From Cetorhinus maximus (Eukaryota): 64,000 nt of DNA. The stretch spans positions 8,432,001-8,496,000 of the forward strand of contig NC_135896.1 in assembly GCF_964194155.1 (NCBI RefSeq). The letters are read 5' to 3'. The stretch's first letter is position 1. Each line of letters begins with the position of its first letter. The notes under the pieces are model-generated. The model searched no databases. It saw only the letters and a list, made by a program, of their open reading frames with translations, and had not been told where the DNA came from. Positions 29,395 through 51,262 of the stretch are shown piece by piece. The translations under genes and the position numbers were made by a program.

Positions 29395-32300
29395 TGTTAT
29401 TGTTCGGTTTTCTTGGAAGATGTTGGATGTCTTGCTCTTAGCTAGAGAACTGGCTGGAGGCAAAGATCTTTTTTCAAAGTAACTTATTTACATGTTTAAC
29501 TATGTACAGGATTACAAAGCACTAATCCAGAGCTACTGCTCTTCTCTCAGATTCTCCTCATTCTCTTCTGAGTGACATCATTATTACATAGCTCCACATG
29601 CTCAGTAGCTATTGTTAGAATAGTGTTTGAGTTAACCCTTTACTCTACATCTCCCCCCATGTCTTTATCCCTATGTACTATGCACATGTCCTCCTACAAC
29701 CCCCCCCCCCACCCTGAAGTCTCAACTTTTACAGGGATAATCTTTGTGGTGGTTTTACCAATCTCTGAGCATGTATGGAGTTCTTTTAAGGTTGTTGAGG
29801 ATCTGTTTTTCTCCAAACTGATTCCCTGAGGGTCATCTCTTGTTTCCTCTTTATTGGTTCTGTAGTTGTAGTTTCCTCTTGAGGATGAAGGTATGCAGCC
29901 CATCTGGCTAATGGCTTCTTATTCATCAAAATCAAGGTGCTCCTGTTTCTTTGGATGATGCCGGTTTCTGCCTGGACAAGGTATGACCTGGCTTGTTGCA
30001 ACTTCTTCATTAGAATACATTCTCGCTGCTTTTGAGTATGGGAAGGTCGTGAACCCTGTGTTGTTGATTGAAAGTGTGAGCTTGGTCTGCTCTATAACCT
30101 TGTTCCTCCTGGTGGGCACAGTCATGATCCCTCTACTGTGAATCTTAGTGTTGATGTGTCAGGAAGGGAAGGGAGTTGGATTCTTAGCCTAAGGCCCATC
30201 AAAAGCTTGTATGGGGTGAAGCCATTCTGCAAATGTGTAGAACGGTAGCTGAGCAGGGCTAACTCAAAATCTTTGTTTTTTTCTGATATTGATTTATTGA
30301 TATGTACCCCTCCCTCAGCCTCTCCGTTGGCCTGAGGGTACCTTGGTGAACTTGTGACGTGGACAAATCCATGTGATGCTACAAAGGATTGGAAACAATA
30401 GTTGGCGAATTGTGGCTTATTGTCAGAAACAACAATGTCCAGCATACCGTGTGTGGAAAATATCCCCTTCTGGGGAAAATCCAGAACTTTTCACCTCAAT
30501 CCAGCAGGAATAATAACCCACAATAATGAGAGATACTTTCCCTTTGAATTCAAATAGCCAAGGCGTATCCATGGCCTGGATGGGAAAGAGGTGGCTCTTT
30601 TCGCCCCTGTCTGTGAATGGCGCAAGTGATGCAATTGGAGAGAGACCATGTCTTAGAGAGATCGAGAGATAGCTTACCACCATATGGATTGCTGTGCCTT
30701 GGCCCGACGTTTTGTAATACCAAGATGGCCCTCGTGAAACATCTTGGAGGATTTCCAGGTGGAGAGCTTGAGGGACCGCCAACTGCTCATCATTAACCAA
30801 GAGGTCACCAATGATGCTGATGTGGCAACGTTGTTCTCAGTACTGTGTCAGGATGGGGTCCCTGGAAACATACTGTAACCATCCATCAAGGCAGTCGGTG
30901 CAAATCTGCATACATTCCTCTTATTGCATTTGAGCCTTCTGAAATTCTTGGAACCTCCGCTCTGTTGCTGGCAGATATTGAGTGGTTAAGATCGTGAAGG
31001 CCTTGACGACTTTGGTGAAATTTTTACCATCTTGTTCTTGGTCGTTGACTTCTTCAACTTTAAGGATTAGGTTCAGACCTTTACAGCCTTTCCTGCTTAA
31101 CAAAGAGCATTCCTGGTTCTGAATGCTATATAGTGCCTCAGAGATTTCTTTGTCTTTGTGCCTGAATGTTGCATCAGGCTGACCGTTGACTTTTAACTTG
31201 AGTCCTCCAAGACCTTGGAGTTGGATTGATGAAAGTTGCAGCATAACTTTTTGCAGCCACTTAACTCTACCAGACAAATCTGAGCCTCCAACTCCTGTAT
31301 CCAATTTAAATCAGTATGCTGTCCATTGACTTCAATACAATAGTTACGGAAATTATTATATCTTCCTGACACACCCAATAAACTGAATAGCTTCAACTGG
31401 CTTTTCCCTGGGGATTTCTTGCTCACCCCTTACAAACACTCGGTTCTGCTTTTGCTCTTCGGCCTGTCTAGCCAGCTGTACTCTTTTGCTCAATGTCCAA
31501 TCTTTTTTCAGATTGTAGGAAGTTTGACAGAGTTTCTTCCAAAACACCGACAACTATTCTGTGTCTTATTAAGTCACCTTTTAATGTTCTATACACACAA
31601 TTGTCAGCCAAATGAAGAGACCATTTGTAAATGAATCGATTCCTTCACCTGGTCTTTGATTTTGATGGTTAAATTTTACTCTCCCTATGACGATGTTTGG
31701 ACAAAGGCTAAAATATGAGTTGAAGGCTAAAATATGAGCCAAAGGCTCTAATGACATCCTCATAGGAGGCTGTCTCCTCGTTCACCCCCTGCCTGGCCAG
31801 CACCTTGTCTGCGATGCTACCGACAGTATATAACAAAGTACTAAAGTTCTTGTTAATCTTATTCGCTAGACCGGAAGCATTGAGTTAATGCATGAAATGC
31901 ATTCTCCAGTTGTACCATTGCTCAGCCTGTCTGGGGCCTTCTATGTTCTAGAACGATTCTGGGAGAGGTAGGGTAGAAGTCATTGCTCACCTTGGGTCGA
32001 GGTTCCGTTTCCTGAGCTAATTTCCATGTTAGTCGCTGGGCTGTCCTTGTGGTGTCCCTCTCTGGTCCAATTACAGGGTAGGGCGCGAAGTCCTTCACCT
32101 GCTGCAGGGTTTCCCCTCTCTTTTTCCTGCCATTTATCATTGCTTTTCTGTGGGACTAGTCACTGCTGCCACCATCTGTTATTGTTGGGTTGTCTTGGAA
32201 GGTGTTGGGTGTCTTGCTGTTAGAAGAGATCTGGTTGGAGACAAGGATCCTTTTTCAAAATAACCTTTATTTACATGCTTAACTATCCACAAGATTTCAG

Positions 32301-32419
32301 AGAACTAGGACAGAACTGCTGCTCCTCTCAGATTCTCCTGTTCCAAGTGACATCAGTTTTACATTGCTCCTTACGCACATGCTTAGTAGATATCGTTAGA
32401 GTTAACCCTTTGGTCTACA
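29395..32419 (-). mobile_element. Gypsy (Mag-like) LTR retrotransposon with two LTRs, lacking RT/RNase H
   Basis: LTRs at 29395-29649 and 32177-32419. PPT ggggggaga at 29650-29658 and PBS TGGTGGCAGC (tRNA-Leu-like). Gag (KFNHQNQRPGE), protease (DTG) and integrase (VSDNKPQF...TSSPRYPQANGEAE) remnants. 5-bp atcag repeat on the flanks. Confidence 0.9.
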
Positions 32420-32959
32420 ATCAGCATCCAACAGTGTCTTAACCTCCTGCGCATCTTCACAACACAGCCGTATTGCCTGTTTGATCCCTTGTTCCCAGTT
32501 ATATAGTACCAATAAGTAAAACATGCATTTGTGGGATACAAAAACATGATCTTGGGGCAGAAAAAATAGGATCATCTTGTACGCTGGGTCGACTTATATG
32601 CCGTGATTATGGTAGTTATAAATGCAGGGATTGATTATCATTGATGAAAATAACAAAAATTGCTAAACATACTCAGCAGGCCAGGCAGCACCTGTGAAAC
32701 GGGAAACAGTTAATGGCCTATTATCAGAACTAGATTATCAATGACAGTGCCTTGCAGTCAGGCTCAGTTACTATTCCAAGCAGATATCCCCAGGGATTCT
32801 GAAATAAAAATCAAAGGTGTTGGAAATCCACAGCAGGTCAGTCAGAACCTGAATAAGGAATGATAGCTTAATATTTTGGATGAACTTAGTTTCAGAATGC
32901 ATTTATGTTAAAACATTAAACTGTTCCTCTATCTATCTCTCTCCCTGGTAACAGCCTGA

Positions 32960-33690
32960 AATTTAATCAGTCTCTTCGCTACCTTGATGTCATATTTGGT
33001 GCCTAGATGATCTTGCGCCCATATGTCTGTCTCTCACTAGGATTGCTTATTTCTGCCCCTGTAGCATTAACCACCTCCTTCCTTATCTGAGCTCATCTGC
33101 TGAAATCTTCATCTACGCCTTTATTACCTCTAGACTTGACTATTCCAATGCACTCTTGACCACCCTCCCACATTCTACCCTCCGTAAACTTGAAGTCATC
33201 TAAAACTCTACTGCCTGCCTCCTAACTCGCACCTGTTCACCCACCATCTCCTTGCTCGCAGGCCTACACTGGCTGTTGGTTAAGCAATAGCTCGATTTTA
33301 AAATTCTCATCATTGTTTTCAAATCCCTTTGTGGCCTAGCTCTGCTCTACCTCTATAATCTCTTCCAGCTGCAACCCTTTGAGATACCCGTGTTCATCTA
33401 ATATTGGCCTCTTGAGCATCCCTGATTTTAATTGCTGCAGCATTGGGGCTGTGCCTTCAGCTCTCCTGGTCCTCAGCTCTGGAATTCTCTGTATAAATCT
33501 CTGTGTTTCTACTTTGCTTTTCTTCTTTAAGGTGGTCCTACCCCTGACCAAGCTTTTGATCATCTACCCTAATATTTTCTTGTGACTTGGCGTCAGATTA
33601 AGTTTGATAATACTCCTGTGAAACATTATTTTATGAAGCTGTGAAATTTTGTTACAGTAAAAGATGTTATATAAATACAAATTGTTATCT
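32960..33690 (+). mobile_element. L2 LINE 3' end
   Basis: AF(I)TSRLDYSNALL motif (tttattacctctagacttgactattccaatgcactc) and an L2-type tail. Confidence 0.8.
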
Positions 33691-34789
33691 TTTTTCATTC
33701 AGTTGCTGACTGACTTGCTGCCCATTTCCAGCAATTTTTAAATAATTTTATATGTCCAGCATTTACTCTTTTTTTAGCCCAGGATCAAGGATCACTGACG
33801 ATGCTGGTTAGCAAGGTTATTGAGCCCAGCAGTGCCAAGGAAATGAATAAGCAGTCAAAACTTAATCATTCCTGTTTCTTTAAGTATATCACAGTTCAAT
33901 TACTGTTTTTATTCCACTGATACCAGTCCTAAATCTGTTTGTTTTTGTCTTTACAGCGTAATGCTCAGCATTGGAATCAGTGTCGCAGTTCCTGCGATCG
34001 ATTTCTATTTATTTTTTGTTCTTTGTATTCTTTTTCCAATTTTGCACCATATTGGCTTAAAGAGAACAATATCTTTTTCGTTCAAAACCTTTCCCAGCTC
34101 GTGGGCTGGCACAGTTTTTAATCACGCGGCTTGAGTTCTGCACAAATGTTTTAAGGTTTCAATTTCAGAGTTATGCAGGGTTGTACGTGCATCTGCTTGA
34201 AGCTGTTAATGGGCAATAATTAGCAAAGCTATCAAGAGGTCTGCTGTTTCAGTCTTTCAGTAATTTCCATAAGGGCTGAAATGACCATCTCTTGTTTTTC
34301 TTCAATTATCTGTTGAGTGTTTTGCTTATTGGAAAAATTTAAAACCAGAAATGTTAATGCATCACAGTCCTACAACGACAACTTGTTCCTGTTTAACGTA
34401 ATAAAATATCCCAAGACTCGTCACAGGAGCGCGAGCAAACAAAAATTTGACACCGAGACACATAAGATATTAGGGCAAGTGATCAAAACTTGGTCAAAGG
34501 GGTATGTGTTAAGAAGAGTCTTAAAGGGGAAAAGAGAGGTCAAGAGGCAGAGAGGTTTAGGACCTAGGCAGCTGAAGGCACGGCCACCAATTGTGGAGCA
34601 ATGAAAATTGGGGATGCTCAAGGAATCTGAATTGGAGGTTCCCAGTCCTGTAACAAGATATGTATTTCTTTCAAATCACTGACACTGAAAGCTGATGCAA
34701 TTTTTGGCTGTTTTATGAAGCCAAGACATCTAATCGGTAGGGTAGAAGTTGTAGCCCTGCAATTTATACCTCAGCAGAGATCACCTTGA

Positions 34790-36310
34790 AACCATCTTCA
34801 GCCAGAATTTCAGAGTGGATGATCCACCTTGACCTCTCCCTGAGGTCCCATAAACACATACCAGTCTTCAGCCAATTTAATTCATCACACGTGGTTTAAT
34901 GAAGTGGTTGAGTGCACTGATTACAGCAAATCTATGGACCTGACTACATGCCAGCTATAGAATTGAAAACATGTGCTCCAGAACTAGTTGCGCCCTAGCC
35001 AAACGGTTCCGACATAGCTGCAACGCTGGCATCTACCCGGCAATGTGGAAAATTGGCCAAGTATGTCCTGTACACAAAAAAAATGGACAAATTCAACCTG
35101 GCCAATTACCGCCACATCTGTCTACTCTCAATCATCAGCAGATTGATGGAAGGTGTCATCGACGGTGCTATAAAGCAGCATTTACTTACCAATAACCTGT
35201 TTACCGATTCTCAGTTTAGGTTCCTCCAGGACCACATAGTCCAGACCTCAGTACAGCTTGGTGCAAACATGGACAAAAGAGGTGAGGTGAGAGTGGCTGT
35301 CCTTGACATTAAGGCAGCATTTGATTGACTTTGGCATCAAGGAGCCCTATTAGAATCAGGGGAAAAACTGTCTTCATTGTTTGGAGTCATACCAAGCACG
35401 AAGGAAGATAGTTGTGGTTGTTGGATGCCAATCATCTCAGCTGCATGACATTGTTGTAGGAGGTCTTCAGCGTAGTGTCTTACGCCCAATCGCCATTCCT
35501 CCATCATAAGGTCGTAAGTGGGGATGAGCGCTGATGATTGCACAGTGTTCAGTACCATTTGCGACGACTCAGATACTGAAGCAGTCTATGCTGGTATTCA
35601 GCAAGACCTGGACAGCATTCGGTGGTGCAAAAGGCACTTGTCATTTAAATGTTAGGCAATGACTATCTACAAGAGAGAATCCAACCAACGCCCCATGACA
35701 TTCATTGGCATTACTATTGCTGTATCCCCCACTTATCAACATCCTGGGTGTTACCATTGACTAAAAAAATTAACTGGACCAACCATATAAATGCTATGGC
35801 TACAAGAGCAGGTCAGATGCTGGAAATTCTATGGCGAGTAACTCACCTTCTGACTCCCAAATCCTGAATGCCATCTACAAGGCACAGGTCAGGACTGTGA
35901 TGGTATACTGTCTACTTCCCTGGATAAATGCAGCTTCAACAACACTCAAGAAACTCATAGCTACCCAGGACAAATTAGCCTGCCAGATCGGCACCCCATC
36001 CATCACCTTAGACATTCAATCCCTTCACCAACAATGGCAACAGTGTCCCATCTGCAAGGTTCCTTTTAGAGTAACTTGCAAACCTGTGACTTTTACCACC
36101 TAGAAGAACAAGTGCAGCTGGCACCACTAGAAGACCACTGCCAACAAGTTTTCCTCCAAGCCACACAGCATCCTGACTTGGAAATATATCGCCGTTCCTT
36201 CACTGGGTCAAAATCCTTGAACTCCCTCCCTAACAGCACTGTGGATGTACCTACACCACACAGACTGCACACAAACAGCACAACTAAGATGAACGGACAG
36301 CAATAAATAT
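34790..36310 (+). mobile_element. Family B LINE, 5'-truncated and decayed
   Basis: ORFs containing ANYRHICLLSII, LDIKAAFD and IYKAQVRTVM. Confidence 0.88.
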
Positions 36311-38054
36311 CCTGATCTTTAAAACTAAATTACTCTTGGCAGATAGTGAAGTTGATTTTTCAATAGTTCATTGCACACCAAGTGCAGCTTATGGCACTAT
36401 TTCACTCAGGATCGCCATGGATCTGCATGAACCACAGGCTAAATATAATTTGTTTTGCCAAATCTCTTAGAATATATGCAGATTTTGATCCTCTGATAGT
36501 CCCATCTCCGGGTTACATGATCCACAGGAGGGTGTTGTCCACATGGCTTAATTAACTGGTTAACACTGAATGGAGGCAAAAGCCATCATCTAGCCTTAAT
36601 AAGTAAAAACATTAAAGTACTAGTTTGTGTCAATACATAAAGCTAGGTCTGTTTCAATCTATATTGACTATACCATGCAATTTGCCTGCTTTTTGTTTTT
36701 AGTTAGGGCATTGGATGAAGGATTAGTTAATTACAAATGATAGAAATTGCAGCATAAAGAGCAGTTGGTCACCCCATTGCTGCACTGGAACTATCTATTT
36801 ACCTCTTCCTTGTCTGTACCATCTCTGTTCTTTTCAAATACTCATCCAATCTCCTGTAGCTAATACTGCAAACATTTGTGATAGAGAACTCTTTTTTCTA
36901 ATAACTCTCATGTGGAATGAAAATCTCCTAACTGCCCTTTTCATTCTACTAGTGATATTCCCAAATGTATGTATTTTTGTTACTGATTTGTCAAGCAGCG
37001 GGAATTATCTTTCAATATTTAACCTCTCAAAAGCTTTTATAATTCTGAAAAACTTAAATTTCCTTGTAATCTCTGCTTTAGTGAAAAATGCTCATTTCTT
37101 CCTTTGTAACTATAATCGTTCATACCTGGCATGTTGTAGATAAATAGTAATCAAAAGACATCCCATCACAGAGCTCTGTGGTACATTGGCTAACAACTTT
37201 ATTTATTCCTACTCTAGGATCTGTCTCTTAGCTGTTTCTATAGCCATGCTTTTATATTCACTTTAACACCATGTACCTTAATTTTTGTAATGTCTCTCAT
37301 AATTTCAAACTTCTGCTGAAAATCAATTTACTCAACATTCAACTTTAATAAACTCTGTGATTTCCACAAAAAAATCAATTAAATCAAGCATGCGCTGCCT
37401 CTAACAAATCTGTGCTGACTATCTCGAAGTTAATCCACGATCAAGGTAAGATTGATTAGCCCTTAATTTCCTGCATTCTGCTTTAAAACTTTCTTAAACA
37501 GTAGTGTGATAGTTGAAACACTAATTCCACAAAGAATTATGGAAAATTCCGATTATGCCTTCCCCCTCAGTCCTTTGATACTTATGGACTTACACTATCT
37601 GGGTTTAGTGATTTTAATTCCACTCATTTTTATGAATATTTTCAGTAGTGTCTTTTCCACATCCTCTTCGTGTACTCCTATAGCCACACTTTCATGGTTC
37701 TCTGTGTAAAGAAATGTTGCAAGTTATTTATTAAACTTCTCTGCCATTCTTTAGTCTTGGGCACAAGATGGTCTCCTTTCTCTCTAAGTGGAATTGATGG
37801 TTTGATTTCCCAGAATTGTCAGACTATTTACTCAAAGCAACTAATTTAATTTTCCTAGTTAACATGTTAACACACAAGAGATAGTGTCTACTAGATAGCA
37901 ATATTGTAGTTTGACGCGATGAATATTAAAGATCCTGCAATGAGAGTTTAGTTGCTTGGGCTTAGACTAAAAATTTCATCTTTCCAATAAGTTTGAGGTG
38001 TTAGTCCACACTTAATACAAGTTTTTGCATCCGTCTTCCAATCGTTTATTTAGC

Positions 38055-38420
38055 GTCAGTTTGATTCAGTAGTGATGCTCTTACCTCTGAAGGAGAACCG
38101 AGGGAGTGTTGCATTGTTGCAAGTGTTATCTTTTGATGAGAAGTTAAATTGAGGCCCTATCTATCTGTTGAGGTGGATGCAAAGAACCCCATGGCACCAT
38201 TTGACGAAGAGCAGGGGAATTCTCCCAGTGTGCTGGCCAACACTTATCCTTCCACTCACACCTCTCAGAACAGATTAACTGCCCATTTATCTAATTTTTT
38301 TGTTGTGAACAGATTAGCTGCTTTGCTAGCCCAAATAACAATAGCGGGTGCATATCAAAAAACATGTAATTAGCTGTGAGGAGCATGGACATATCCTGAG
38401 GATGTTGAGGTGCAATTGAT
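38055..38420 (+). mobile_element. Deu-domain SINE
   Basis: cccatggcaccatttgacgaagagcaggggaattctcccagtgtgctggccaa. Confidence 0.75.
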
Positions 38421-39648
38421 TTCTTTGTATATCTCCATGTTCCTGATGCATTGATCCATTTTGGCATCTTTCTTGTTCTTAGCTCCTCATTTGTGCCATA
38501 TTGACAAACTTTTTTCCCATTGTGGAATTTCTTTCCCCTCCAGCTGAAGCTTAATTAGCAACTTTGAAAATTTAAAAACTCACTTTCAGCTGTATAAAGT
38601 TTAACCTTTTTTTTTGCAATTGTCTAAATACCAGAACTATCTTTTGTCACTTGCAACAGAAATGTGTCTTGTTCACAGTGGCAATCTACCCACTGTGAAA
38701 TGATTGTAGAGGAAGTCCTTTCCTCCCACCCACCATGCTCTTTCCCACCATCCCCACACACATTAACAACCATCAGACTAAAACTTCCATTTTTGCATAT
38801 ATTAAAATCCAAATTTTTGTTTGAATTCCCCTTTTTCTTTAAATGCACTGTTGTTTTCTTGGGCCATTGCAATCCTTAGCTGGAAACAGAAACATGTCTT
38901 CTGAAGTTTGCAAAGAAAATGACCTGGAAGATCATTGCAGCTTATTGCTGGCAAGAAAATAAAGTAATATGGTTCTCATTATGCATTCCTTCTATTTGCT
39001 GCTGTAATGCTTGGTCTGAGATCATATCATTTCTTGTGTGCTTGACATCCACATAACTTGTTGTAGATTTCCTTAATTCTTGTGAATTTATGCCCTTTGG
39101 GTGTCGATCTAGCGCTATAAACAAAGGCATAGAGTGCAAAGGCAAGGAAGTTATTCTAAATCTTTATAAATCACTTAGCTGGATTGTGTTGTCCAGAAGT
39201 GGACACATTACTTTAGGAAGTATGGCAAGGTTTTAGGGAGAGCCTGTGAGAAGATTTACTAGAATGATAGCAAGGATGAGGGACTTTAATTATGAGAAAA
39301 GACTGGAAAAAACTTGGATTGTTCAGCTTAGTATTGAGACTGTCAAATCTTAGATTTAATAGATATGTTCAAAATCATAAAGGGTTTTGATGGAGTAAAT
39401 ATGGAGAAACTGTTTCCACTGGCAGGAAGGGCTGGCAACCAGAGTACACAGGTTTTAAGGTAATTGGCAAAACAGCCGGGGGGAGATGACAAATTATTTT
39501 ACGCAGCAAGTTATGATCTGGAATGCACTGTCTGAAAGGATGATGGAAGCAGATTCAATAGTATCTTTCTCAAGGGAATGGATGAATGCTTGAAGAGGAA
39601 ACATTTACAGGGCTATGGCAATTGGGACTAAGAGCTGGCATAGGCATA

Positions 39649-39893
39649 AAAACAAAAAACTACTGCGGATGCTGGAAATCCAAAACAAAAACAGAATTAC
39701 CTGGAAAAACTCAGCAGGTCTGGCAGCATCGGTGGAGAAGAAAAGAGTCGACGTTTCGAGTCCACATGACCCTTCAACAGAACTGAGTATATATACTCTG
39801 TTGAAGGGTCATGTGGACTCGAAACGTCGACTCTTTTCTTCTCCACCGATGCTGCCAGACCTGCTGAGTTTTTTCAGGAATTTCTGTTTTTGT
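39649..39893. mobile_element. Young non-autonomous Penelope-type palindromic element
   Basis: Near-perfect ~96-bp inverted arms (39685-39780 / 39798-39893) and an exact 15-bp TSD GCTGGCATAGGCATA (39634-39648 / 39894-39908). Confidence 0.85.
39746..39784 (-). ncRNA. Putative minimal type I hammerhead ribozyme (A6U variant)
   Basis: AGUU-CUGUUGA-A-GGGUC(AUGUG)GACUC-GAAAC-GUC-GACU gives stem I, core, stem II, a palindromic ACGU stem III and a GUC cleavage triplet. Confidence 0.6.
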
Positions 39894-41584
39894 GCTGGCA
39901 TAGGCATAGGCATATTTGGGTTAATGGCCTCCTTCTGTGCTGTACGATTCTATGATTCTGCAATATGTCACACGACAGCTTTGTTGAAGAACAGCAAGGT
40001 GGGAGATCCTTGTAAATAGGTTAAACTTACTGTACTGATCGTATGAAAATGTTTAACACTCTGTTACTAATATGTTGTGAAATCATTACCTAAATTCTGT
40101 TTGAAAACTTTAAAAGTTGAGGTTGCTTGATCACAACAGAGTTAACCTTTTCGGATTTTCTCTGTTCATGACGAATAGTTAACATGGCACAGCTGCTTTA
40201 CTCAAAATGACGACTGGTCAATTTCCTGATGTAGGGCATTCTCTATGTTAAAACTAGGAAACACAAAGCAGTCTCTACCACATGAGCATACATGTGTGGT
40301 GAAAATATTTCAATTAAAAAGGCACAAGCCTTTCTTGTTTGAGAACATGGCTTTGATTGGTTTTATGTTAAAAAAATTGACGTGGCACAGAAGTAAAGGT
40401 TGCTTGTGTTTGGATTCCTGTTGTGCCTCTGTAAAAACAGTGGCTGATCTTTACAGGGGGAAGTGCTGAGGGTGAGGGATGTGAATTAACACACGCTAGT
40501 GGGGTGACATGATAGATAGAGTGCCCCAAGGTTAGCAACTAACGAATGGCATTGATTCAGTTCCCTCACTGTTGGGCTGCTTAACTCCTCTAAAGTCGAT
40601 TCCTTGATTATGTCATCACCATTCCCTGTTTCAACCAGGTGAACAGCAGCGGAATGAAAAAATTAATTGTGATTCTGTGCCAGGTCTTTTGCAAAGGTTT
40701 GGTTTGAAAAAAGGCATACTGATGAAGTGTCTTCTTGAAATAGGTTTCATCTGAGCTGATTTCCAAGGGGCCTTTTTATTAATAACTAAAGTGACTGTGA
40801 TACACTTAATGCAGAACTTGCTTTCTGTTTTTAGTATTCGCATTTATGTCCTGAGTTCTGTGGAAGTGTTCAAGTATTGGGAAATTAAGGGCACGGATTT
40901 TGTAAAGACAAAACATGTTTGAGTAACCTGATCGAATTCACTGATGAAGTAACAGAGAAGTAATTTACAAAGTAATGTGGAAAAAGCTGGGGTGAGGGAC
41001 TAAATTGAAAATTTTCTTCGCTGCCATCATCAACCCTTCTTCAAAGAGATCAATCAGGTTAGTCAGACATGATTTGCTTTTGTCAAATCCGTGCTGGTTT
41101 TCTCTTATTAACTCATGCATCCCCAAGTGAGAATTACTTTTGTCCTTGCTAGTGGTGTTTAATTGTTTCCCCATGACTGACTCTAGACTGATTGGCCTGT
41201 AGTTGCTAGGTTTTTCCCCCTCCACTTTTTTGAATAGCAGTGTACATTTACAATTCTGTAACTGCTCCAATATTGGGCTGATAAGTGGCAAGTAGCACTG
41301 GTGCCACACAAGCGCCAGGCATTGACCATCTCCAACAAGAGAGAAACCAACTGCCTCCCCTTCACACTCGTTTTTTTTATTTGTTCATGGGATGTGGGCA
41401 TCGCTGGCTAGGCCAGCATTTATTGCTGAGCTAGCGAAAGTCCAGATCCCCTGAATTAAAAATTTAAAAATGAAAGAATTAAAAATAAATTCAAGGAGGA
41501 TTGAATGATTGTGGTCAGATCTTCTGCTATCTCCACTCTAGCTTCCCTTAGCTTCTGTTCTGGATCGGTAGACTTGTTAAATTT

Positions 41585-43420
41585 TTATCCTTTCACAGGA
41601 TGTGGGCGTTGCTGGCTAGGCCAGCACTTTTATTGCCCATCCCTTAATTGCCCTTGAGAAGATGGTGGTGAGCTGCTGCCTTGAACTTCTGCAGTCCACG
41701 TGGTGTAGGTGCACCCACAGTGCTGTTAGGGAGGGAGTTCCAATATTTTCACCCAGCGACAGTGAAGGAACGGTGATTATAGTTCCAAGTCAGGATACCA
41801 ATGATGCTCACATCCCATGAACAAGTAAAGAAGAAAAAATGTCAGGATGATGTGTGACTTGGAGGGGAGCTTGCAGGTGGTGGTGTTCCCACACGTCTGC
41901 TGCTTGTCCTTATAGGTGGTAGAGGTCGTGGGTTTGTAAGGTACTGTCGAAGGAGTCTAGATGAGTTGCTGCATTGCATCTTGTAATGGTACACACTGTT
42001 GCCACTGTGCATCGGTGGTGGAAGGAGTGTATATTGAAGGTGGTGGATGAAGTACCAATCAAATGGACTGCTTTGTCCTGGGTGGTATTGAGCTTCTGGA
42101 GTGTTATTGGAGCTGCACTCATCCAGGCAAGTGGAGAGTATTCCATCACACCCCTGACTTGTGCCTTGTAGATAGTGGACAGGCTTTGGGGAGTCAGGAG
42201 GTGAGTTACTATCCACAGAATTCCCAGCTTCCGACCTGCTCTTGTAGTTGCAGTATTTATATATTTTTAAAATTCATTTACAGGATGTGGGCATCGCTGG
42301 CTAGGCCAGCATTTATTGCCCATCCATAATTGAGAAGGTGGTGCTGAGCTGCCTTCTTGAACTGCTGCAGTCCACGTGGTGAGAGTACAGTTCAGTTTCT
42401 TGTCAATAGTAACTCCCAGGACATTGATAGTGGGGGATTCAGCAATAGTAATGCCATTGAGTGTCAAGGGGGGGCTGGTTAGATTCTCTCTTGTTGGAGA
42501 TGGTCATTGCCTGGCACTTGTGTGGCGTGAATGTTACTTACCACTTGTTCGCCTAAGCCTGGATTTTGTCCAGGTCTTGCTGCATATGGGCACAGACTGT
42601 TTCACAGACTGAGTCACAAATGGTGCCGAATATTGTGCAATCATCAGCGAACATCCCCATTTTTGACCTTATGATGAAAGGAAAGTTATTGATGAAGAAG
42701 CTGTAGATGGTTGAGCCTAGGACACTACCTTGAGGAACTCCTGCAGTGATGTCCTGGAGTTGATGATTGACCTCCAACAACCACAACTATCTTCTTTTGT
42801 GCTGGGTGTGACTCCAGCCAGTGGAGAGCTTAACCCTGATTCCCATTGACTCCAGTTTTGTTAGAGCTCTTTGATCACACTCGGTTAAATGTTGCCTTGA
42901 TGTCAAGGGCATTCACTCACCTCACCTCTGGAGTTCAGCTGTTTTGCCCATGTTTGAACCAAGGCTGTAATGCGGTCAGGAGCTGAGTGGCCCTGGAGGA
43001 ACCCAAACTGAGCTTTAGTGCGGAGGTTATTGCTGAGTACAGGCTTGACAGCACTGTTAATGACCCTTCCATCATTTTGCTGATGATCAAGTGTGGACTG
43101 ATGGGGTGGTAATTAGATTGGATTTGTCCTACTTTTTGTGGACAGGACATTTTCCACGTTGCCAGGTAGATGCCAGTGTTGTAGATGTACTGGTACAGCT
43201 TGACTAGGGCTGCAGCTAGTTCTGGAGCATAAGATTTCAGCACTATTGCTAGAATGTTGTCAGGGCCCATAACCTTTGCATTGTCCAGTGGCTTCAGCCA
43301 TTTCTTGATATTACATGGAGTGAATTGAATTGGCAGAAGACTTGCATCTGTGATGCTGGGGACCTCAGGAGGAACCTGAGATGGATCATCCACCTAGCAC
43401 TTTTGGCTGAAGATTGTTGC
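41585..43420 (-). mobile_element. Family B LINE 3' half with two self-family tail insertions
   Basis: ORFs containing MEYSPLAWMSAAP, GVPQGSVLG..MFADDC and VMGPDNILAIVLK. Confidence 0.88.
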
Positions 43421-43809
43421 CTGGCAATCCCAATTTGGCGTTAAATTGCTCATGACGACGTCAGGAGGGGTTCCCACCGCATCGCGAGATTATGCTAGGT
43501 GGGCACGCCCACTGTCAATTAAAGGGCCAATCGACTATAATTTTGAACAGCCGGTTTATTATTACGCTTGGCGCATGGGCGAAACGGGCAGGCAGGAATC
43601 GTATATTTTCAACTTTCTGGATCCAGGGCGAGATATAAGGGCCAGAAGGAATAGAGAAGTGAGAAGGTAGGAGTTTAAAATTGAGTTGTGAATCTGTACA
43701 TTACTGATTTAGTGAAGCATCCTGTTTGTTGACATTAGTTTAGGAGGCTTAAATCGTTTCAGAGGCTTTTTGCAGACAGTCTTCATCATAAGTTAGGTGA
43801 AGCAGAAGG

Positions 43810-46185
43810 ATTGAGATAGGCATTGGTCAATCTGCTGGAGGGACTTCCTCAGATGAGGAAGAGAGGCTGCAGAAAGCATAGTAGAGTCTGCCCTCAAGAC
43901 TAAGAGGCACAGCCTGAAGGGATGGAAGGCCAGCAAGCATTGTGAGGGAGAAGGGCAGGAGGAGACGCCAATACCCTGTTACAAGAGAGTATACAGGCTG
44001 AGATCCAGCTACCTTGAGATGACCAAGGTCTGGTGCCGAAGAAGGCTACGCCTCTCAAGGGAGACAGTGACCTTTCAATACGTAACATGATAGGCCCTGA
44101 GGTCGCATCAAATTGTGCAGGTGGGCACCCAATGCCAGTGGGGCTAAAGGTTGCCCTTAATTTTTATGCCTTGGGTTCATTCCAGGAGTCTGCGGGAGAT
44201 CCTTGCGGAGTGTTACAATCTGCAGCTCACAGCTACATAAAGCTTGTGACGGATGCACTGTTCCCAGGGTCAACACCTTTATACATTACGAGACAGATGA
44301 GGACAGCCAGGCAGAGTGATCCAGAGGATTCGTAGCTATAGCAGGCGTTCCGATTCAAGGAGCCATTGATTGCATACGTGCCCATCAAGGCACCTGTGGG
44401 AGAGTCGGGGCCTTTGTAAATTGAAAGGGGTTCCATTCTCTGAACATCCAGCTAGTGTGCGATCACCAACATGAAACCCTGCAGGTTTGTGCCAGATATC
44501 CTGGGAGCTGCCATAATTCATATATTCTCCATCACTCCCAGGTGCCAAGACTGTTCATAGCTTGGATAGCTAGCTGCTGGGGATATCTGCATCAAAAGGT
44601 GGCTAATGACACCGATCAGACATCCAAGGATGCCCGCGGAGGAGAGGTACAACTGGGCTCATGCCTCCACTAGGGCCATCATTGAGAGGACAGTAGGCCT
44701 CCTCAAAATGAGGTTTCGCTGTCTGGACCAGTCCTCCAGAACACGTATAAGAACTAGGAGCAGGAGTAGGCAATTCAGCCCATCGAGCCTGACCCGCCAT
44801 TCATTATGATCCTGGCTGAACTCATTTCGGCTTCAACTCCAATTTCCCGTCCTCTCCCCATAACCTTTCAACCCATTATTAATTAAAAATCTGTCAATCT
44901 CCTCAAATTTATTCAGTGTCCCGGCATCCGCTGCACTCTAAGGTAGTGAATTCCACAGATTCACGACCCTTTGATAAAAGTAATTCCTCCTCGTCTGATT
45001 TAAATCTACCATCCCTTAGCCTCTCGTTCTAGCATGCCCCACAAGGGGAAACATCCGCTCCACGTCTACTTTGTCTATCTCCTTTAGCATCTTATATACC
45101 TCAATTAGATCTCCTCTCATCCTTCTAAGCTCTAGTGAGTGTAGGCCTAAACTGCTCAGTCTATCCTCATAAGACAAGCCCCGCATCTCTTGAATCAATC
45201 TAGTGAACTGCCTCTGAACCGCCTCCAGTGCAACTACATCCTTTCTTAAGTAAGGGGACCAAAACTGTGCACAGTACTCCAGGTGCGGTCTCACCAATGC
45301 CTTGTACAGTTGCAACAACACTTACCTATTTTTATACTCTATTCCTTTAGCAATAAATGCCAAAATTCCACTTGCCTTCCTTATTACCTGCTGTACCTGC
45401 ATACTAGCTTTCAGCGATTCATGCACGAGGACACCCAGATCCCTCTGCACTGAAGCATTCTGAAGTTTCTCTCCATTTAAATAATAAGTCGCCTTTTTAT
45501 TCTCCCGACCAAAATAGACAATCTCACACTTATCCATGTTAAACTCCATCTGCCAGATTTTGGCCCATTCACCTAACCTGTCCATATCCATTTGTAAAAT
45601 TCTTATTTCTTCATTGCAATTTACTTTCCCACCTATTTTGGTTTCATCTGCAAATTTAGCTATAGTACCTTCTATCCCTGAATCCAAGTCATTAATATAG
45701 ATTGTAAATAGTTGGGGCCCAAGGACCGAACCCTGTGCCACCCCACTAGTTACAGCTTGCCATCCAGAAAAAGACCCACTTATCCCGACTCTCTTGCTTT
45801 CTGTTGGTTAGCCAATCCTCTATCCAAGCTAATATATTACCCCCAGCTCCGTGTGATCTTACCTTGTGTATTAATCTTTTGTGCGACACCTTATCAAAGG
45901 CCTCCTGGAAGTCCAGATATACTACATCTACAGGATCCCCATTATCCACTTTGCTTGTCACATCTCCAAAGAACTCTAGCAAATTAGTCAAACACGATTT
46001 ACTCTTCATAAAACCATTATACCTTATAGTGGTTGTGTGCCTGTGCCCTTCACAGTCCGACTGTCTCAAGAGGAGAGCGGGTGAAGAAAGCGATGTGCTT
46101 CCAGAGCTGCTGAGGAAGAATCTTGCACTAACTCTGAGGAAGAACCTGATCAGCCACAGGGTCATGAAGATGATCCAGCAATGAG
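43810..46185 (+). pseudogene. Harbinger DDE transposase (HARBI1-like), frameshifted and split by CR1
   Basis: RRRLRLSRETV, ALNFYALGSFQ, GAID, CARYPGSCHNS and YNWAHASTRAIIERTVGLLKMRFRCLD. It resumes as IVVVC after the CR1. Confidence 0.88.
44746..46017 (-). mobile_element. 5'-truncated CR1 (RT) inserted in the Harbinger transposase
   Basis: KSCLTNLLEFF, YLDFQEAFDKV, QGSVLGPQLF and RPHLEYC motifs plus the CR1 tail. Confidence 0.93.
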
Positions 46186-46558
46186 GCAGCTTTTATGGGA
46201 TGGGGGGTGGGGGGTGGGAGGTGGTCCTTGATTCAAAGTAGTTTCCTGTAGGACTCCAAAGCTTTGCAAACGGACTGTCACTTTACTGCCTAGGGCTCAT
46301 GAAGCTCTCCTGGCACCATCCTCTCCTGTCCCTCCTCCTAAAATACACTATCCAGCCCAACTGATGCCGTACACAAAATTGCAGACCTCCTCCCTAACTA
46401 TCACAGAAAGCACAATAAGGCCATTTGACATGATGTCACGTTTTAATAGTGATGTGTGACAGCTATATACAACATTACGCAAGTGACAATAAGAAAGAAT
46501 TTGCCCATGAAAGCAATGTGATTATAGTGATTTAAATTTCCGTGTATGAGTGCTATGT

Positions 46559-48110
46559 CTAGGTGCTTCCCCATCGCTGGCAGCTGCAATGGAGGCAGGC
46601 TGCTGACTCTGATACCCTTTTGGCCTTGATGACTTTGGCGGCCATCCTCTGGTCACCAGGGCCTGTTTGGACTGGAGGGTCCAGCATTATGGCTGGGCAT
46701 TCCTCAGTCATCGCGGTCTCCTCAGATACAACAGTTACTGGCAGAAAGGTGGAGGAGCCGCTGCCATCATCAGGAGTGCCCTGAGAGGAGCCCCCAGACG
46801 CATGGAGCTGTAGGTCGTCCATCAACATGAGGTTTGCTTGAACCTCCCTGCTCACCATAAATGGATGAGCAGCTAGCAGCGTCACTAGGTGCCTCCTCCA
46901 TTTCTCACATTGGCAGTGAGCTGCAGAGGCCAATGCCAGTGTGTGGACTCGAAGGTCTGAATGCAATCCCAGAAACCCCTGATTGAGTCCCTGGAGCTTC
47001 CACTTCGAACTGCCACTCTCTCCACGGAGGATGCTGTGTGCCTGCATGGACTCCTCCATTACCGAGACCATGGCATGCAAACCCTCAAGAATTCCTGCCA
47101 GATCTTCACGTTCATCCCGCTGGACACCCAGCATTTGCAACCTAATAGATGTCTCTGGAGGCTCATCATCTGCCTGGGGCTCAGCATCATCCTGTCTGCA
47201 GGAAAGTTCTGACTATCGGAACCCGGTGGACTCTCTGCCTCCGCCATCTCCTCAAGTGAATATGGTGTGACTTCCCCAGTGTGTTCTACCATCTGTCCTG
47301 GAGCCCTCAAATCCACCGAAGTGCCTGTACCTGAGGTGGTGCAAGGTACAGAGAAAAGATGTGACACGGGTGCACCTGGCTGGACATCGTTTTCTGATGT
47401 CAATGGAGAGTCTTGTGGATCATTTAGTGGTCTGGAGGATGTTCCATCTGAGAGAGGTAAAACATTTTTGAGTATCCATCAGCACTTAGAATTCAGAGTC
47501 CATGCATTCTGTTAGATTCTGAATTGGAATTCTGGCTAAGATACGGCTTCTGAATGGACGAACATAAGGGATTAGTAGACTCCACCTGTCAGTCTTACAC
47601 CCGTGGCCTTACATTTTGTATATGTTCCCCCAATCTTGTTGATGTCCACTGGACTCTTGCCTTCCTCCGAAACCACTGCCTCTTCGCGACCAGTGGATCT
47701 TGCTCCACGCTCGCACGCCATTCCCAGAATCTGCTCCTCCACCAGAGTTAGCAACGCCAGATTCGGTACTCCATTACCAGTTCGTCTTTGCTCCTGGGCA
47801 TTGTGACTCCTCCTGTAAGGACAATAGTGCTTTCATGAGTTCCCCCTCTATATGCCCGAACATTGCATCCTCCTCCCCTAATATCGCTGGTTTAACTGCC
47901 CAGCACACTGCGGGACTTCGCCCTTCCATACATGCCTGCTATCCTGTCTAGTCCCATGCAGTCTACAGGGGCACAGGAACATGAACTTAAGCTCGTGGCT
48001 TTACAATGGAGAGCCCCAGCAAGAGCGAATCCACACACACGCATTAATTGAAGGTTACATGGGGCCTTAATACTCACCCTTGCAGAGCGGAGAAGATCAT
48101 TGACCCTCCC
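46559..48110 (-). pseudogene. Harbinger Myb/SANT-like partner gene with introns, convergent with the transposase
   Basis: Exon remnants RVNDLLRSAR|gtgagt (ends 48078), SHNAQEQRRTGNGVPNLALLTLVEEQILG (from 47812) and a long last exon (47448-46559). Confidence 0.7.
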
Positions 48111-49442
48111 CGGCTACTGACTAGAAATGCCACCTCTGACCAAGCCTCCTTTTTTAGATGTGGGCCGCCTGCCCCTAAAACTTTGCATCATGCCGACCTC
48201 CTTTTTTAAAATCTATTTTCATGCTATCCAATATTCCTACTCCCCTCTCCTCTACTCTGACATTAACTTCACCTTCTTGTGAAGACAGATGCAAAGTACC
48301 ATTTATGAAGAATACTCTTAGTAGGATGCAAAGTATCATTTCAAAATTAGTGTGAGCTACACATTTGTCACGCTGAATGTATTGCACAAATTGAGAAAGT
48401 CTGCTTCACCTTGGGCTCAGAGGTTGTGCAGAGAATTAATCGAGTGTGTGGAGTTTTGGTTTGGCACCATGAACTGGGATAAATCCTGCCCATAGAGATG
48501 TATGAAATACAAGTTGAGGGAAACCAACAGTGTTGCAAAAGATGAAATAAGGACAGGGTAATGCATTTATGATAGTGAATTTGAAGACTAGGAAAGGAGA
48601 GAGAAATCAATGTAGCGTCAGTCATCCCTATAACCCCTTTTTTCTCGTAACCCTGCAAATTAATCCTCTTTGGACTCGATAGCAACATATAAAAGAGAAT
48701 TGGAGAAATATGTGTTGGGAGAAAAGTTACAGAGCTGTGGGGAAATAGCCCTACTGAAGAGCCGGCACAGGCTTGATGGACCAAATGGCCTCTTTTGCTG
48801 CTGCACTGTTCTGTGATGCTATGATTCTTCAAGTACATGTCTAACTTCCTTTTGGAAGCTCCTATGGAATCTGATTCTACAGCCTTTCAGGTTGTGTGTG
48901 CCAGATCTTAACTATCTTTTATGTGAAGAAATTTCCCCTTGCTTCGCCTCCTGCTCTTTTAACAATTATTTTAAATCTATAGCCTCTGGTTGTTAATTGT
49001 ATCAACTGAAGTTAAGTACATGCCGGTGGAGGGCATTGATATCTAAATAGAAACAATGTGCAGGGTTATGGGAAAAGGCAAGAGATCGATACTAAGTTAA
49101 AATGCTCAGAGAGCCAGTGCAGATACGATGGGCCGAATGGCCTCCTTCTACACGGTCACAATTCTCTGATTCTGTGATTGAATGGTTACTTGAGCACATA
49201 TAAAGAGACACATACTGACACGCGAGTTGAGTGGAGTCAGGAGATACATGTCTGTAATGTACCACTCTGTGAATAAGCCTATTCCAAGTAAAGAGTGGCT
49301 TTGGATTCTTCCTTCAGCAGCTGGCTATCAGATGTACAACACTGGTTATCACCCACTTGTCAGCGGAAATAGTTTCTCACCGCTTTCTCTATCAAACCCA
49401 TCCATAATTTTAAATGCCTCTGTCAAACCTCCTCTTAACCTT

Positions 49443-49578
49443 AAAAGAAAAACAAAATACTGCAGATGTTGGAAATCTGAAATAAAAACAAAGTGCTGGA
49501 AAGTCTCAGCAGGTCTGGCAACATCTGCCGAGAGAAAAAGAGTTAATATTTCGGGCCTAATATGACTTCTTCGGAGCT
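49443..49578. mobile_element. Penelope-type terminal-repeat single arm
   Basis: tactgcagatgttggaaatctgaaataaaaac...cagcaggtctggca. Degenerate hammerhead core on the minus strand (CCGAAGA...GAAA). Confidence 0.75.
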
Positions 49579-50120
49579 GTTCAAAATCAGTACAGAACTT
49601 TCAAAGGAGAATTAAATAATTACTTGAAGGAGAAACATTTGCAGGGATATGGGGACAGAGTGGGGGAACGGGACTAACTGAATTGCTTTTCAAAAGAGCT
49701 GGCTCACACTCAGTAAACCAAATGGCCACCACCTATGCTGTACGATTCCCTCTTCTCTCTTTCCTCCTCCTGCTCCTTTCACCTTTCCCCTTTCTTCCCC
49801 CGCTCTTTCCTCCCCCCCTCTCTCTCTCTCTCTCCTTCCCTCTCCTCACTGTCGTGCTGTAATTCCACATGTATTTTCTCATCTGTCCTTACCCATCAGC
49901 AGCATTCTCAATAGGAACAGTTACTCTGAGCATTTTTTCACAATCAGCTGCTGGCGCTCCGACTATTTGAAGTAGGAAAGTGGGGCTATTGATTCCACTC
50001 CCCAGTGTACACTGAGCACTTGCACCATTGGTCTCCCCCTTTAGTCATACATCCCACAGCTAATTATTAAATGCTTTACCTGACAGAAATGTCCATTACT
50101 ACCCCATGTCTAGTGATCAT

Positions 50121-51262
50121 GACCGGGATCTTCTGTGCCCGCTGGTGTCGGGCGTGTTCAGTGGCGTGGGCGGACAATATGGCACAATAGGTTTCAGGAC
50201 AGCGTGAAACCAGTTTGCGAGCGTCCACTCAGCCTGCCAATGGTGGGCTGCATTTCCCGCCATCAGACCTCATTGTAATACATCAGCATATCATTATAAG
50301 GCCAGCCTGCTGGACTCACCACCCCCCCTGCCTACCTTGCTTCGATCAGCCTTCACAGACAGCACCACATCACTTTTAGGGGGGCTCATGGGTAGCTCTC
50401 TACTTACCAGATCAGGCATATGTGGGTGGCATTTCAATGGCTGCAGGGCAAGGTCTTGCTTGGGGAAGGGGGAGAAGTGGCCTCAGGCAAGGGAAGAGGC
50501 TGCAGGACAAGAGCTGTACAGGGGAAAGAGCGTACACCAGGGTGTGTGGGGCACATGTTGATCTGTGCAAGTGGCCTCAAGATGGTGAGGGCTGAGGAGG
50601 CAGTCTCCAGAGGAGATGAGATGAGATGGACATGTGAGGGTAAGTGTGTGAGAGTGTGAGTGGTGATGTCCCTTGAGCTGGCAGAGAGTGAGATGCTTGT
50701 GAATGTGTGATGGGCTTGAGTGTGAGAGTTTAGAGTGATGAGATGGTTGCCATACCCTGCATGAGGTACAAACACCGGATGAGATCATTCATCCTGTATC
50801 TGCATTGGATGGCCAACCTCTTCTGTGCAGCATTGGCCTGCCATGCTGGATTGGTAGTGCCGCTGCCTGACCTGCAGCCAGAGCCAGGATGGAGGACATC
50901 ATGGTGGGCCTCCACGGCATCCAAATGGCATTCCAGTGACACGTCATTAAACCTGGGGGCTGCAGTCTTTTTGCCTTTCATGGACATCTTCTCTGCAGTA
51001 GTCGTGGGCTGGTAGCATAGAGATGTGTGCGTGCGACTGGACTTTAATCGTGGCGCCAGGTGTGATGAAGCGGTGAGGTGATGGTGTGGCAGGTGAGTGA
51101 GAGCTCGCCCGCCATGGAAATGTTGTGTTTCTCAGGAATGCATAAGTAATGCGGCGGGTTTGGGATGATACAGCGTGAAAACCCGCCATGCAGCCGGCAG
51201 GTAACTTGTCATTTTACCTGCCCACTACTGCACTTAGTGCAAATCTGGGACGATTCTGCCCC
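50121..51262 (-). mobile_element. Non-autonomous Harbinger derivative retaining the Myb/SANT N-terminal exon
   Basis: ORF 50730..50987 reads APRFNDVSLECHLDAVEAHHDVL...AW...QCRYRMNDL. Terminus gggcagaat. Confidence 0.75.

What the first reader, a model, noticed from the sequence alone, without database searches (positions are those of the whole stretch)
39649..39893. Young palindromic Penelope-type element with two opposed hammerhead motifs and a 15-bp TSD
Seen: both arms share the same bases across the hammerhead region, they are separated by a 17-nt spacer overlapping a perfect 14-bp palindrome (gagtatatatactc), and the TSD is exact. The minus strand folds as a minimal type I hammerhead with a palindromic ACGU stem III, an extra A after A9, and CUGUUGA in place of CUGANGA. 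The + arm keeps the core but has lost stem I. Established: Penelope-like elements carry minimal hammerheads that act as dimers and often form inverted pseudo-LTRs. Inference: this is a mobile non-coding ribozyme unit made by fold-back priming. It would form a ~96-bp hairpin in CEP128 pre-mRNA.
Basis: partly seen in the sequence, partly recalled or inferred. Interest (0 to 1): 0.7.

Follow-up and report, generated by a model that had tools for sequence, protein, structure and literature searches.

The report
Head-to-head Penelope retrotransposon stub in shark
This palindrome in a shark gene's intron is the two short ends of a very common Penelope-type jumping gene joined head to head, likely made by copying the element's RNA once from each strand of the target DNA rather than by a self-spreading ribozyme unit, and its thousands of relatives hint at how these elements insert and that their altered hammerhead ribozyme may still cut.

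Summary
The sequence description is right: near-perfect inverted arms, exact 15-bp TSD, minimal hammerhead with U at position 6, inside a CEP128 intron. The site is empty in a related species.

It is not a stand-alone mobile ribozyme unit. It is the shortest class of insertion of an abundant Penelope-like family (RT, CX4CxxC linker, GIY-YIG; Neptune-type; 47,102 exact matches to a 23-mer). Inverted pairs run continuously from about 0.1 to 3.3 kb. In 181 of 191 pairs exactly one arm has the tail, and arm ends cluster at two sites.

The tailless arm often reaches further 5' than the tailed arm (33 vs 12 short pairs; 19 vs 15 long pairs). Simple fold-back cannot give this; two primings, one per target strand, can. 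An excess of symmetric pairs leaves fold-back possible for some copies, this one included.

Position 6 is U or C in 155 of 156 arms, and stem II covaries. Arm 5' ends peak at the predicted cleavage site (18 of 100 vs about 3 expected), a hint of cleavage in vivo. In this copy both hammerheads are predicted to be buried in the hairpin. The scan's index showed no related earlier finding.

The parts
39634..39648 (+). Left target-site duplication (15 bp; last 3 nt also match the parent element's continuation)
   Evidence: parent continuation
39649..39684 (-). 36-nt Penelope 'tail' (+96 to +131 from hammerhead C3), present on this arm only; its end is the distal family end site, inferred reverse-transcription start
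   Evidence: tail concept from PMC11167929, PMC3846280
39649..39791 (-). Tailed arm: 5'-truncated pLTR copy (-11 to +131); query positions 5-147 are 100% identical to the tailed arm of the longer ORF-bearing copy L064
39746..39784 (-). Minimal type I hammerhead: stem I 39784-39781/39749-39746, core CUGUUGA 39780-39774, extra A 39773, stem II 39772-39768/39762-39758, GAAAC-GUC; predicted cut between 39750 and 39749
39785..39798 (.). 14-bp junction palindrome; 39792-39798 (TATACTC) reads as a 7-nt snap-back or templated insert, followed by a 5-nt skip at a TC microhomology that removes the 5' strand of stem I from the + arm (inferred)
39798..39893 (+). Tailless arm (0 to +95): hammerhead core and stem II kept, stem I lost; ends at the proximal family end site (+91 to +104 in 164 of 181 tailless arms)
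39894..39908 (+). Right target-site duplication, followed by an extra GGCATA (39909-39914)
39340..39960 (+). Older high-copy repeat remnant into which the element inserted (CR1/L2-type LINE 3' end by recall, not tested)
   Evidence: high multi-copy depth on both flanks; family name recalled
13761..58388 (+). CEP128 intron (~44.6 kb; left boundary approximate) that contains the insertion

Best explanation
The palindrome is a doubly 5'-truncated, head-to-head insertion of an abundant Penelope-like retrotransposon family (Neptune-type by its linker motif), likely made when both strands of the target DNA were nicked about 14 bp apart and each nick primed its own short cDNA on the element's RNA, one from the distal (tail) site and one from the proximal site, the two cDNA ends then likely being joined by microhomology-type repair. 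Shown: parent element, two fixed 3' end sites, one tail per pair, TSD, same-subfamily arms, unequal arm lengths in both directions, empty site in a relative. Inferred: two priming events; templates from one source locus; run-off near an RNA 5' end at about -4 as the reason why very short arms are common; occasional run-off at the hammerhead cut. This copy is a dead-on-arrival product. In CEP128 pre-mRNA it is predicted to form a ~97-bp hairpin that buries the one sense hammerhead, which also lacks stem I, so it is unlikely to cleave.
For: Parent: L061 is pLTR-ORF-pLTR with a 3305-bp unit; L208 carries RT YxDD, CX2-5CxxC and Y.I.C..C...YIG motifs in one 774-aa frame; Pfam RVT_1 E 1.2e-6 (28.8 bits, just under the 29.6 cut-off) and GIY-YIG E 0.097; two more distant homologues pass the GIY-YIG cut-off. 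Abundance: 47,102 exact matches of a downstream 23-mer; 1,721 short palindromes of one subtype. 3' ends: 56 of 100 arms at +91..104 and 41 of 100 at +125..147. Exactly one tailed arm in 181 of 191 head-to-head pairs and 50 of 50 very short ones. Tailless arm reaches further 5' in 33, tailed in 12, tie in 5 of 50 short pairs; 19 vs 15 with 10 near-symmetric among 44 long pairs. TSD of 7 bp or more in 163 of 181 pairs, mode 14 bp (73). Arms agree at all 11 diagnostic sites in 71 of 89 pairs vs 17% between pairs, also at spacers over 500 bp (28 of 35). The Anolis Poseidon protein cleaves and extends both target strands and starts RT at two adjacent internal sites that delimit the tail (PMC11167929). 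Empty site in 4 of 4 runs of organism B.
Against: Near-symmetric pairs are in excess (10 of 44 vs 2.1 by shuffling, 0 of 10,000 shuffles), so some events are coupled: fold-back, or two cDNAs ending at one RNA break. This copy is near-symmetric and has a snap-back-like centre, which fits self-priming (proposed for Penelope palindromes in PMC3846280). Post-insertion deletion could shorten a tailed arm in some pairs. The pair set is pooled from several searches and is not a random sample. How two cDNAs copy the same stretch (two RNAs, two pLTRs of one RNA, or strand displacement) is not resolved. The own partner was the closest arm in only 33 of 89 pairs. A cap-derived G at -5 was not seen (8 G, 10 A, 82 T in 100 listed, counted by eye), so the transcription-start reading rests on the end peak and on recalled promoter motifs. 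No RNA evidence was obtained.
Confidence: 0.72

Rival explanations
1. Same parent element, but this copy's second arm was made by fold-back self-priming: the first cDNA stopped at TATA (-11), snapped back and copied itself to the top-strand nick.
For: Perfect 14-bp palindrome at the junction; tailed arm (-11) reaches at least as far as the other; a second, structurally different copy folds at the same TATA (L008/L088); excess of symmetric pairs; self-priming proposed in PMC3846280.
Against: The second arm ends at +95, the same proximal site as 164 of 181 tailless arms and as direct-repeat copies such as L061, whereas a copied-back strand has no reason to stop there. Fold-back cannot explain pairs whose tailless arm is the longer. 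Short templated inserts also occur at clearly asymmetric junctions.
Confidence: 0.2
2. The palindrome is a self-propagating non-autonomous unit (MITE- or retrozyme-like) whose two hammerheads work together.
For: At least 1,721 short palindromes; a constant tailed end in 30 of 30 best hits; five of 39 short pairs share one centre; non-autonomous PLE derivatives are described (bioRxiv 10.64898/2026.07.22.740005, PMC8557442).
Against: This copy's centre 24-mer has 2 matches in 3.99 Gb and the other copy differs in structure and subfamily letters. 34 distinct centres in 39 pairs; the five that share one have 4 arm haplotypes. Recurrent centres occur in different subfamilies and in both orientations to the tail. 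Opposed hammerheads cannot both be sense in one RNA, and the hairpin abolishes the predicted fold. No tandem array as in retrozymes.
Confidence: 0.05
3. The arms are alike because of later arm-to-arm conversion in a hairpin, and the palindrome arose by rearrangement of an older solo insertion.
For: Private variants are mirrored in both arms of several short copies (L010, L020, L023, L028, L030).
Against: Concordance is the same when arms are over 500 bp apart (28 of 35) as when they are close (39 of 49); TSDs flank the whole two-arm unit.
Confidence: 0.03

Closest known systems
EN+ Penelope-like elements with inverted 5'-truncated pLTR, tail and TSD (Adineta vaga Pen2a/Pen3a, PMC3846280; general scheme in PMC8557442 Fig. 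2 legend)
   Same: Head-to-head pLTRs, a 30-40-bp tail on one side only, TSD, palindromes at the inverted junction, 5' truncation.
   Different: Here both copies are cut down to the pLTR with no ORF body; TSD mode 14 bp against the 8-10 bp examples read there; the census favours two primings over the self-priming proposed there.
Poseidon element PAc of Anolis carolinensis (PMC11167929)
   Same: Two adjacent internal end sites about 35 nt apart delimiting the tail; a hammerhead upstream of them; uncut RNA as the main template.
   Different: The parent here has the CX2-5CxxC linker that Penelope/Poseidon lack; its first ORF ATG lies at +171, downstream of the tail, not inside the hammerhead; genomic 5' ends peak at the predicted cut, where that study found no RNA-seq read ends.
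Minimal hammerheads (min-HHR) of metazoan PLE pLTRs (PMC4209133)
   Same: Type I, 4-bp stem I, extra nucleotide between 9 and 10.1, G10.1-C11.1 pair, palindromic 15.2-16.2, covarying stem II; opposite-strand pairs 100-700 bp apart were noted in Schistosoma.
   Different: A6 is replaced by U or C across the family; stem II is 5 bp rather than 7-8 bp.
Natural A6C hammerhead of phage Bcep176 (PMC3088659, PMC7151607)
   Same: Pyrimidine at core position 6.
   Different: That is a single phage ribozyme, slow in Mg2+ and favouring Mn2+; here U6 and C6 variants spread to tens of thousands of copies. No A6U hammerhead data were found in the one search made.
Non-LTR retrozymes (bioRxiv 10.64898/2026.07.22.740005)
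   Same: Non-coding, hammerhead-bearing, PLE-derived sequences in vertebrate genomes.
   Different: Retrozymes are tandem direct repeats with a hammerhead in each unit; this is an inverted pair with no sign of propagating as a unit.

Membership tests
EN+ Penelope-like element (PLE) | Single ORF with RT and C-terminal GIY-YIG endonuclease in the parent | tested here: met
   L208 774-aa frame with YxDD and Y.I.C..C...YIG motifs; L061 has both with a frameshift; Pfam hits are weak, homologues P0140 and P0150 pass the GIY-YIG cut-off
EN+ Penelope-like element (PLE) | pLTRs in direct and/or inverted arrangement | tested here: met
   Direct 753-bp repeats 3.3 kb apart in L061; 191 head-to-head pairs
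EN+ Penelope-like element (PLE) | 30-40-bp tail at one end only | tested here: met
   36-nt tail on the left arm; one tail in 181 of 191 pairs
EN+ Penelope-like element (PLE) | Two cysteines between GIY and YIG (CCHH motif) | tested here: met
   LVYCIRCSQCGLLYIGE followed by EH and CH; definition from PMC8557442
Neptune clade | CX2-5CxxC linker upstream of the endonuclease (Neptune and Nematis; absent in Penelope/Poseidon) | tested here: met
   CPRRRCNTC in L061-L066; definition
Neptune clade | RT phylogeny grouping with named Neptune elements rather than Nematis | not tested
   No named reference elements were returned (one search hits are unnamed or 'uncharacterized'), so no tree was built
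Minimal type I hammerhead (PLE min-HHR) | Stems I and II with compensatory change | tested here: met
   Stem II 98% of cells paired, U-A to C-G in 9 of 80 distinct rows; four inner stem I pairs kept with G-U changes; covariation above 500 of 500 shuffles. The change probably arose once, in one subfamily, so it is one event
Minimal type I hammerhead (PLE min-HHR) | Core C3 U4 G5 A6 N7 G8 A9 / G12 A13 A14 / U16.1 H17 | tested here: not met
   All positions kept except A6: U 93, C 62, A 1 of 156 arms; 16,727 U6 vs 4,722 non-U matches, 98 of 100 listed being C. It is a core variant, not a canonical member
Minimal type I hammerhead (PLE min-HHR) | Extra nucleotide after A9, G10.1-C11.1 pair, palindromic 15.2-16.2 | tested here: met
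   A7 and G8 invariant in 156 of 156; ACGU kept apart from CpG decay
Minimal type I hammerhead (PLE min-HHR) | Self-cleavage (as a dimer or protein-assisted) | not testable with these tools
   Indirect only: 5' ends peak at the predicted cut, 18 of 100 vs 3.2%; about 2.5-fold over a site 3 nt upstream genome-wide
Non-LTR retrozyme or self-propagating palindromic unit | Tandem direct units with a hammerhead each, or dispersed copies descended from one unit | tested here: not met
   Inverted, not tandem; unique centre; 34 distinct centres in 39 pairs

The most novel reading that the evidence does not exclude
This shark family is a genomic record that Penelope inverted pLTRs arise by twin target-primed reverse transcription, one priming on each nicked strand at the two ends of the tail, and that a hammerhead whose 'invariant' A6 has become U or C still cleaves the element's RNA in the germ line, leaving cDNA ends at the cut site.
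Probability: 0.4. Interest if true: 0.62.

Novelty: new variant of a known kind. Interest (0 to 1): 0.38.

Why it matters
The locus itself is an ordinary dead copy among tens of thousands, with no sign of function. The family is more useful. How Penelope elements form inverted pLTRs and one-sided tails is described as unresolved (PMC8557442), and whether their minimal hammerheads cut in vivo is open (PMC4209133, PMC11167929). This genome holds thousands of precise junctions that discriminate between the models and point to direct tests: RT start sites at about +95 and +133, both-strand priming, and cleavage by U6 and C6 cores. Hammerhead searches that require CUGANGA would miss the whole family; Rfam did.

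Tried and rejected
Rfam scan: no hammerhead match; the miRNA hits reflect the hairpin only. A family search for PF26215 was not possible, the library lacks it. Cap-derived G at -5: no excess, the list is dominated by a subfamily with T at -5. The first upstream control for the cleavage-site count was mis-specified (it allowed the native A) and mostly counted CpG decay, 1,074 matches; discarded and replaced. In one search, 5' ends reported near -50 are alignment stops in a poly-C tract and were pooled as 'long'. Two of 57 long pairs with mis-chained coordinates (L217, L358) were dropped, and 11 more had no arm reaching -100, leaving 44. RNAcofold of two monomers did not give the canonical stem III dimer as its best structure; uninformative. 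Reads: no run of another individual of the same species covered the flanks, so polymorphism is untested; the one possible RNA run gave 19 short contigs, no editing or splicing information. Lunse et al. 2017 is not held, so whether it lists A6U/A6C PLE variants could not be checked. A recalled PMC id fetched an unrelated paper. The earlier-findings index returned one unrelated bacterial note. Considered and rejected: DNA-transposon MITE (asymmetric tail, RT parent, variable TSD); miRNA precursor (scores under gathering thresholds); L1-style twin priming (there the inverted piece is a different, non-overlapping part of the RNA, by recall; here both arms copy the same stretch).

Full report
Observation. 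The 245-bp element at 39649-39893 is as described: inverted arms differing at 3 of 97 positions, a 14-bp central palindrome and an exact 15-bp flanking repeat. It folds at -195.6 kcal/mol, z -23.5. The minus strand has a complete minimal hammerhead layout with CUGUUGA; the plus arm lacks the 5' strand of stem I. Rfam has no hammerhead match here. An exon at 10533-11549 is 99% identical to a CEP128 record named Cetorhinus maximus and 96% to one named Carcharodon carcharias, so the host is a lamniform shark. Further exons place the element in a plus-strand intron of about 44.6 kb. Contigs from 4 of 4 runs of a related species join 39647 to 39931 with 14 letters between and differ from the flanks at about 3.5% of positions (17 of 484 in one record). 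The insertion therefore post-dates that split. The 3 of 97 arm differences fit any time since then (inference).

Family and parent. A DNA search gave 1,327 candidates; the 40 scored were all near-full-length palindromes, 89-95% identical apart from the locus itself. Exact patterns gave 6,583 matches for the stem I and core region, 16,727 for the U6 core, 4,722 for non-U6 cores and 47,102 for a 23-mer downstream. Paired hits led to the parent. L061 is pLTR-ORF-pLTR with a 3,305-bp unit. L207 and L208 hold an inverted copy next to a pLTR-ORF-pLTR copy with RT, CX4CxxC linker and endonuclease motifs in one 774-aa frame. Pfam support is weak for the shark ORFs themselves and passes the GIY-YIG cut-off in two homologues. 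By the definitions in PMC8557442 the linker makes it Neptune- or Nematis-type; Neptune is the likelier in a vertebrate (bioRxiv 2026.07.22.740005), and no tree was built. Positions below count from hammerhead C3 = 0.

Anatomy of insertions. In the first 100 listed matches of the downstream 23-mer, 3' ends fall at +91..104 (56) and +125..147 (41), 3 elsewhere. Among 191 head-to-head pairs pooled from all loci held, 181 have exactly one tailed arm, 6 none and 4 both; spacers run continuously from 11 to 3,301 bp. TSDs of 7 bp or more were found in 163 of 181, mode 14. The two arms of a pair share subfamily letters (71 of 89 vs 17% between pairs), whatever the spacer. The window copy ends at +131 (to +134 with the ATA overlap) and at +95, the two family sites.

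Mechanism. Fold-back from the first cDNA requires the tailless arm to be nested within the tailed arm. In 50 very short palindromes the tailless arm reaches further 5' in 33, the tailed arm in 12, with 5 ties. In 44 long pairs (57 found; 2 mis-chained and 11 with no arm reaching -100 left out) the numbers are 19, 15 and 10 near-symmetric. Each arm then holds sequence that the other lacks, which calls for two reverse-transcription starts on RNA. This matches the in vitro behaviour of the Anolis Poseidon protein, which cleaves and extends both target strands and starts at two sites that bound the tail (PMC11167929). I therefore infer twin priming across a staggered cut, with the cDNA ends joined by microhomology or short templated inserts, as the junctions show. 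Against a single mechanism, symmetric pairs are five times more common than shuffling gives. The window copy is of that type and has a snap-back-like centre, so fold-back remains possible for it.

Why so short. 5' ends pile up at -5..+1 (14 of 100; 2.0 per nt vs 0.23 upstream and 0.41 downstream). The sequence there reads TCAGTT with a TATAT-like box about 30 nt upstream, which fits an initiator and TATA box by recalled consensus; similar motifs are described in Adineta pLTRs (PMC3846280). Priming on the pLTR copy at the 5' end of a transcript would run off here. A cap-derived G was not found, so this is inference. The window's tailed arm stops at -11, slightly beyond that peak.

Not a propagating unit. 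The centre 24-mer occurs twice in 3.99 Gb, and the second copy has a different overall junction and subfamily letters. Of 39 short pairs 34 have distinct centres; one simple centre is shared by five copies with four arm haplotypes. A small self-copying sub-lineage among those five is not excluded.

The ribozyme. In 156 arms the core is conserved except for A6, which is U (93), C (62) or A (1); N7 and H17 vary only between U and C, with one exception at N7. Stem II shows U-A to C-G and G-U to A-U or G-C changes, probably few independent events. A6C is known to slow hammerheads in Mg2+ (PMC3088659, PMC7151607). The isolated 39-mer is predicted to form stems I and II, but longer natural contexts compete (stem II probability 0.12-0.26 for U6 arms at 60-139 nt), and in the whole element both are 0.0 on either strand. 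This copy should not cleave.

A hint of cleavage in the family. Among 100 arm ends in 50 palindromes centred near the site, 18 start at +31, the base after H17, against 3.2% under a uniform null (p 3e-9; the null ignores microhomology). At the 16 junctions with inserted bases, where microhomology cannot fix the end, 9 of 32 ends are at +31 (counted by eye). Genome-wide in the window's subtype, two-mismatch patterns gave 74 matches at +31 and 44 at +28, or 197 vs 78 after correcting for flank letters. Of 30 inspected +31 loci, 20 are truncations, 6 are joints that use stem I complementarity and 4 are internal deletions; of 30 +28 loci the script called 26 truncations, and about 5 of these are internal deletions by eye. 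The excess stays near 2.4-fold. These ends are of the order of 1% of arms (rough estimate), in line with a slow ribozyme and uncut RNA as the main template. RT pausing at the stem III helix next to the site is an alternative that I could not exclude.

Literature seen. PMC4209133: parts 1-2 of 4 (results, discussion, part of methods). PMC11167929: parts 1-2 of 4 (main text, start of methods). PMC8557442, PMC3846280, PMC6155905, PMC6765202, PMC3088659, PMC7151607: passages found by term search. bioRxiv 2026.07.22.740005: part 1 of 5 and passages. Lunse et al. 2017 (PMC5785218): not held, title seen in a reference list only. No supplements were read; those of PMC4209133 and the Lunse alignments may already contain shark or A6-variant motifs. 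Searches that found no description of this shark family, of twin priming in Penelope elements or of an A6U hammerhead: (open-access library only; Repbase and Dfam were not available, and the repeat may be catalogued there).

Verdict. Real, well-formed, and of a known kind: a Penelope-like inverted-pLTR insertion reduced to its ends. The value lies in the family: a core-variant hammerhead in tens of thousands of copies, and junction statistics that favour two-strand priming and hint at cleavage in vivo. Interest 0.38.

Noticed in passing
L061 minus strand, +80 to +168 from the upstream hammerhead C3 (window equivalent of the donor near 39700, minus strand): A donor-like CAG|GTAATT at +80 and a branch/acceptor-like TTGAC...TTCAAG| at +168, just before the ORF's first ATG (+171), would make an 89-nt 5'-UTR intron that contains both RT end sites, so only unspliced RNA could be a template. 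An intron spanning the pLTR/body boundary is described for Chlamys-3 (PMC8557442). Untested.
   Followed up: partly
L034, L079, L084, L100, L211: Five of 89 pairs differ between arms at hammerhead position 6 (U vs C), more than at any other diagnostic site; in three simple pairs the tailed arm is U and the tailless arm C. Could mark two different templates per insertion.
   Followed up: partly
window 62360-62558: An older, diverged palindromic remnant of a related Penelope-like family (72% to the element), same one-tail layout.
   Followed up: partly
window 18684-18779, 49449-49543, 24046-24086, 32649-32696: Further single-arm fragments of related Penelope-like families (79-83% identity).
   Followed up: no
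L207 and L208 (G000:C1:5606600-5614000): A complex insertion of about 6.5 kb: inverted long copy plus pLTR-ORF-pLTR, with a TSD of about 14 bp and a 774-aa open frame; a different subfamily (C6 core, 6-bp stem I).
   Followed up: partly
L369, L374, L383, L385, L315, L321, L323, L327: Recurrent internal deletions that remove hammerhead stem II or the GAAAC-GUC segment between short direct repeats (GTCA; AA).
   Followed up: no
window 58389-58580: This CEP128 exon is present in two shark CEP128 records (P0002, P0003) but absent from the closest record (P0001), suggesting exon skipping or an annotation gap.
   Followed up: no
window 39909-39914: A third GGCATA follows the right TSD; the relative's empty site is 9 letters shorter than a clean excision would give, so extra bases may have been added at or after insertion.
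   Followed up: partly
family arms, +5 to +12 with +38 to +45: GAAGGG of the core and stem II can pair with the downstream CUUUUC/CUUC tract in predicted folds, competing with the hammerhead; the same complementarity marks several junctions (ends at +5 with +37 to +44).
   Followed up: partly
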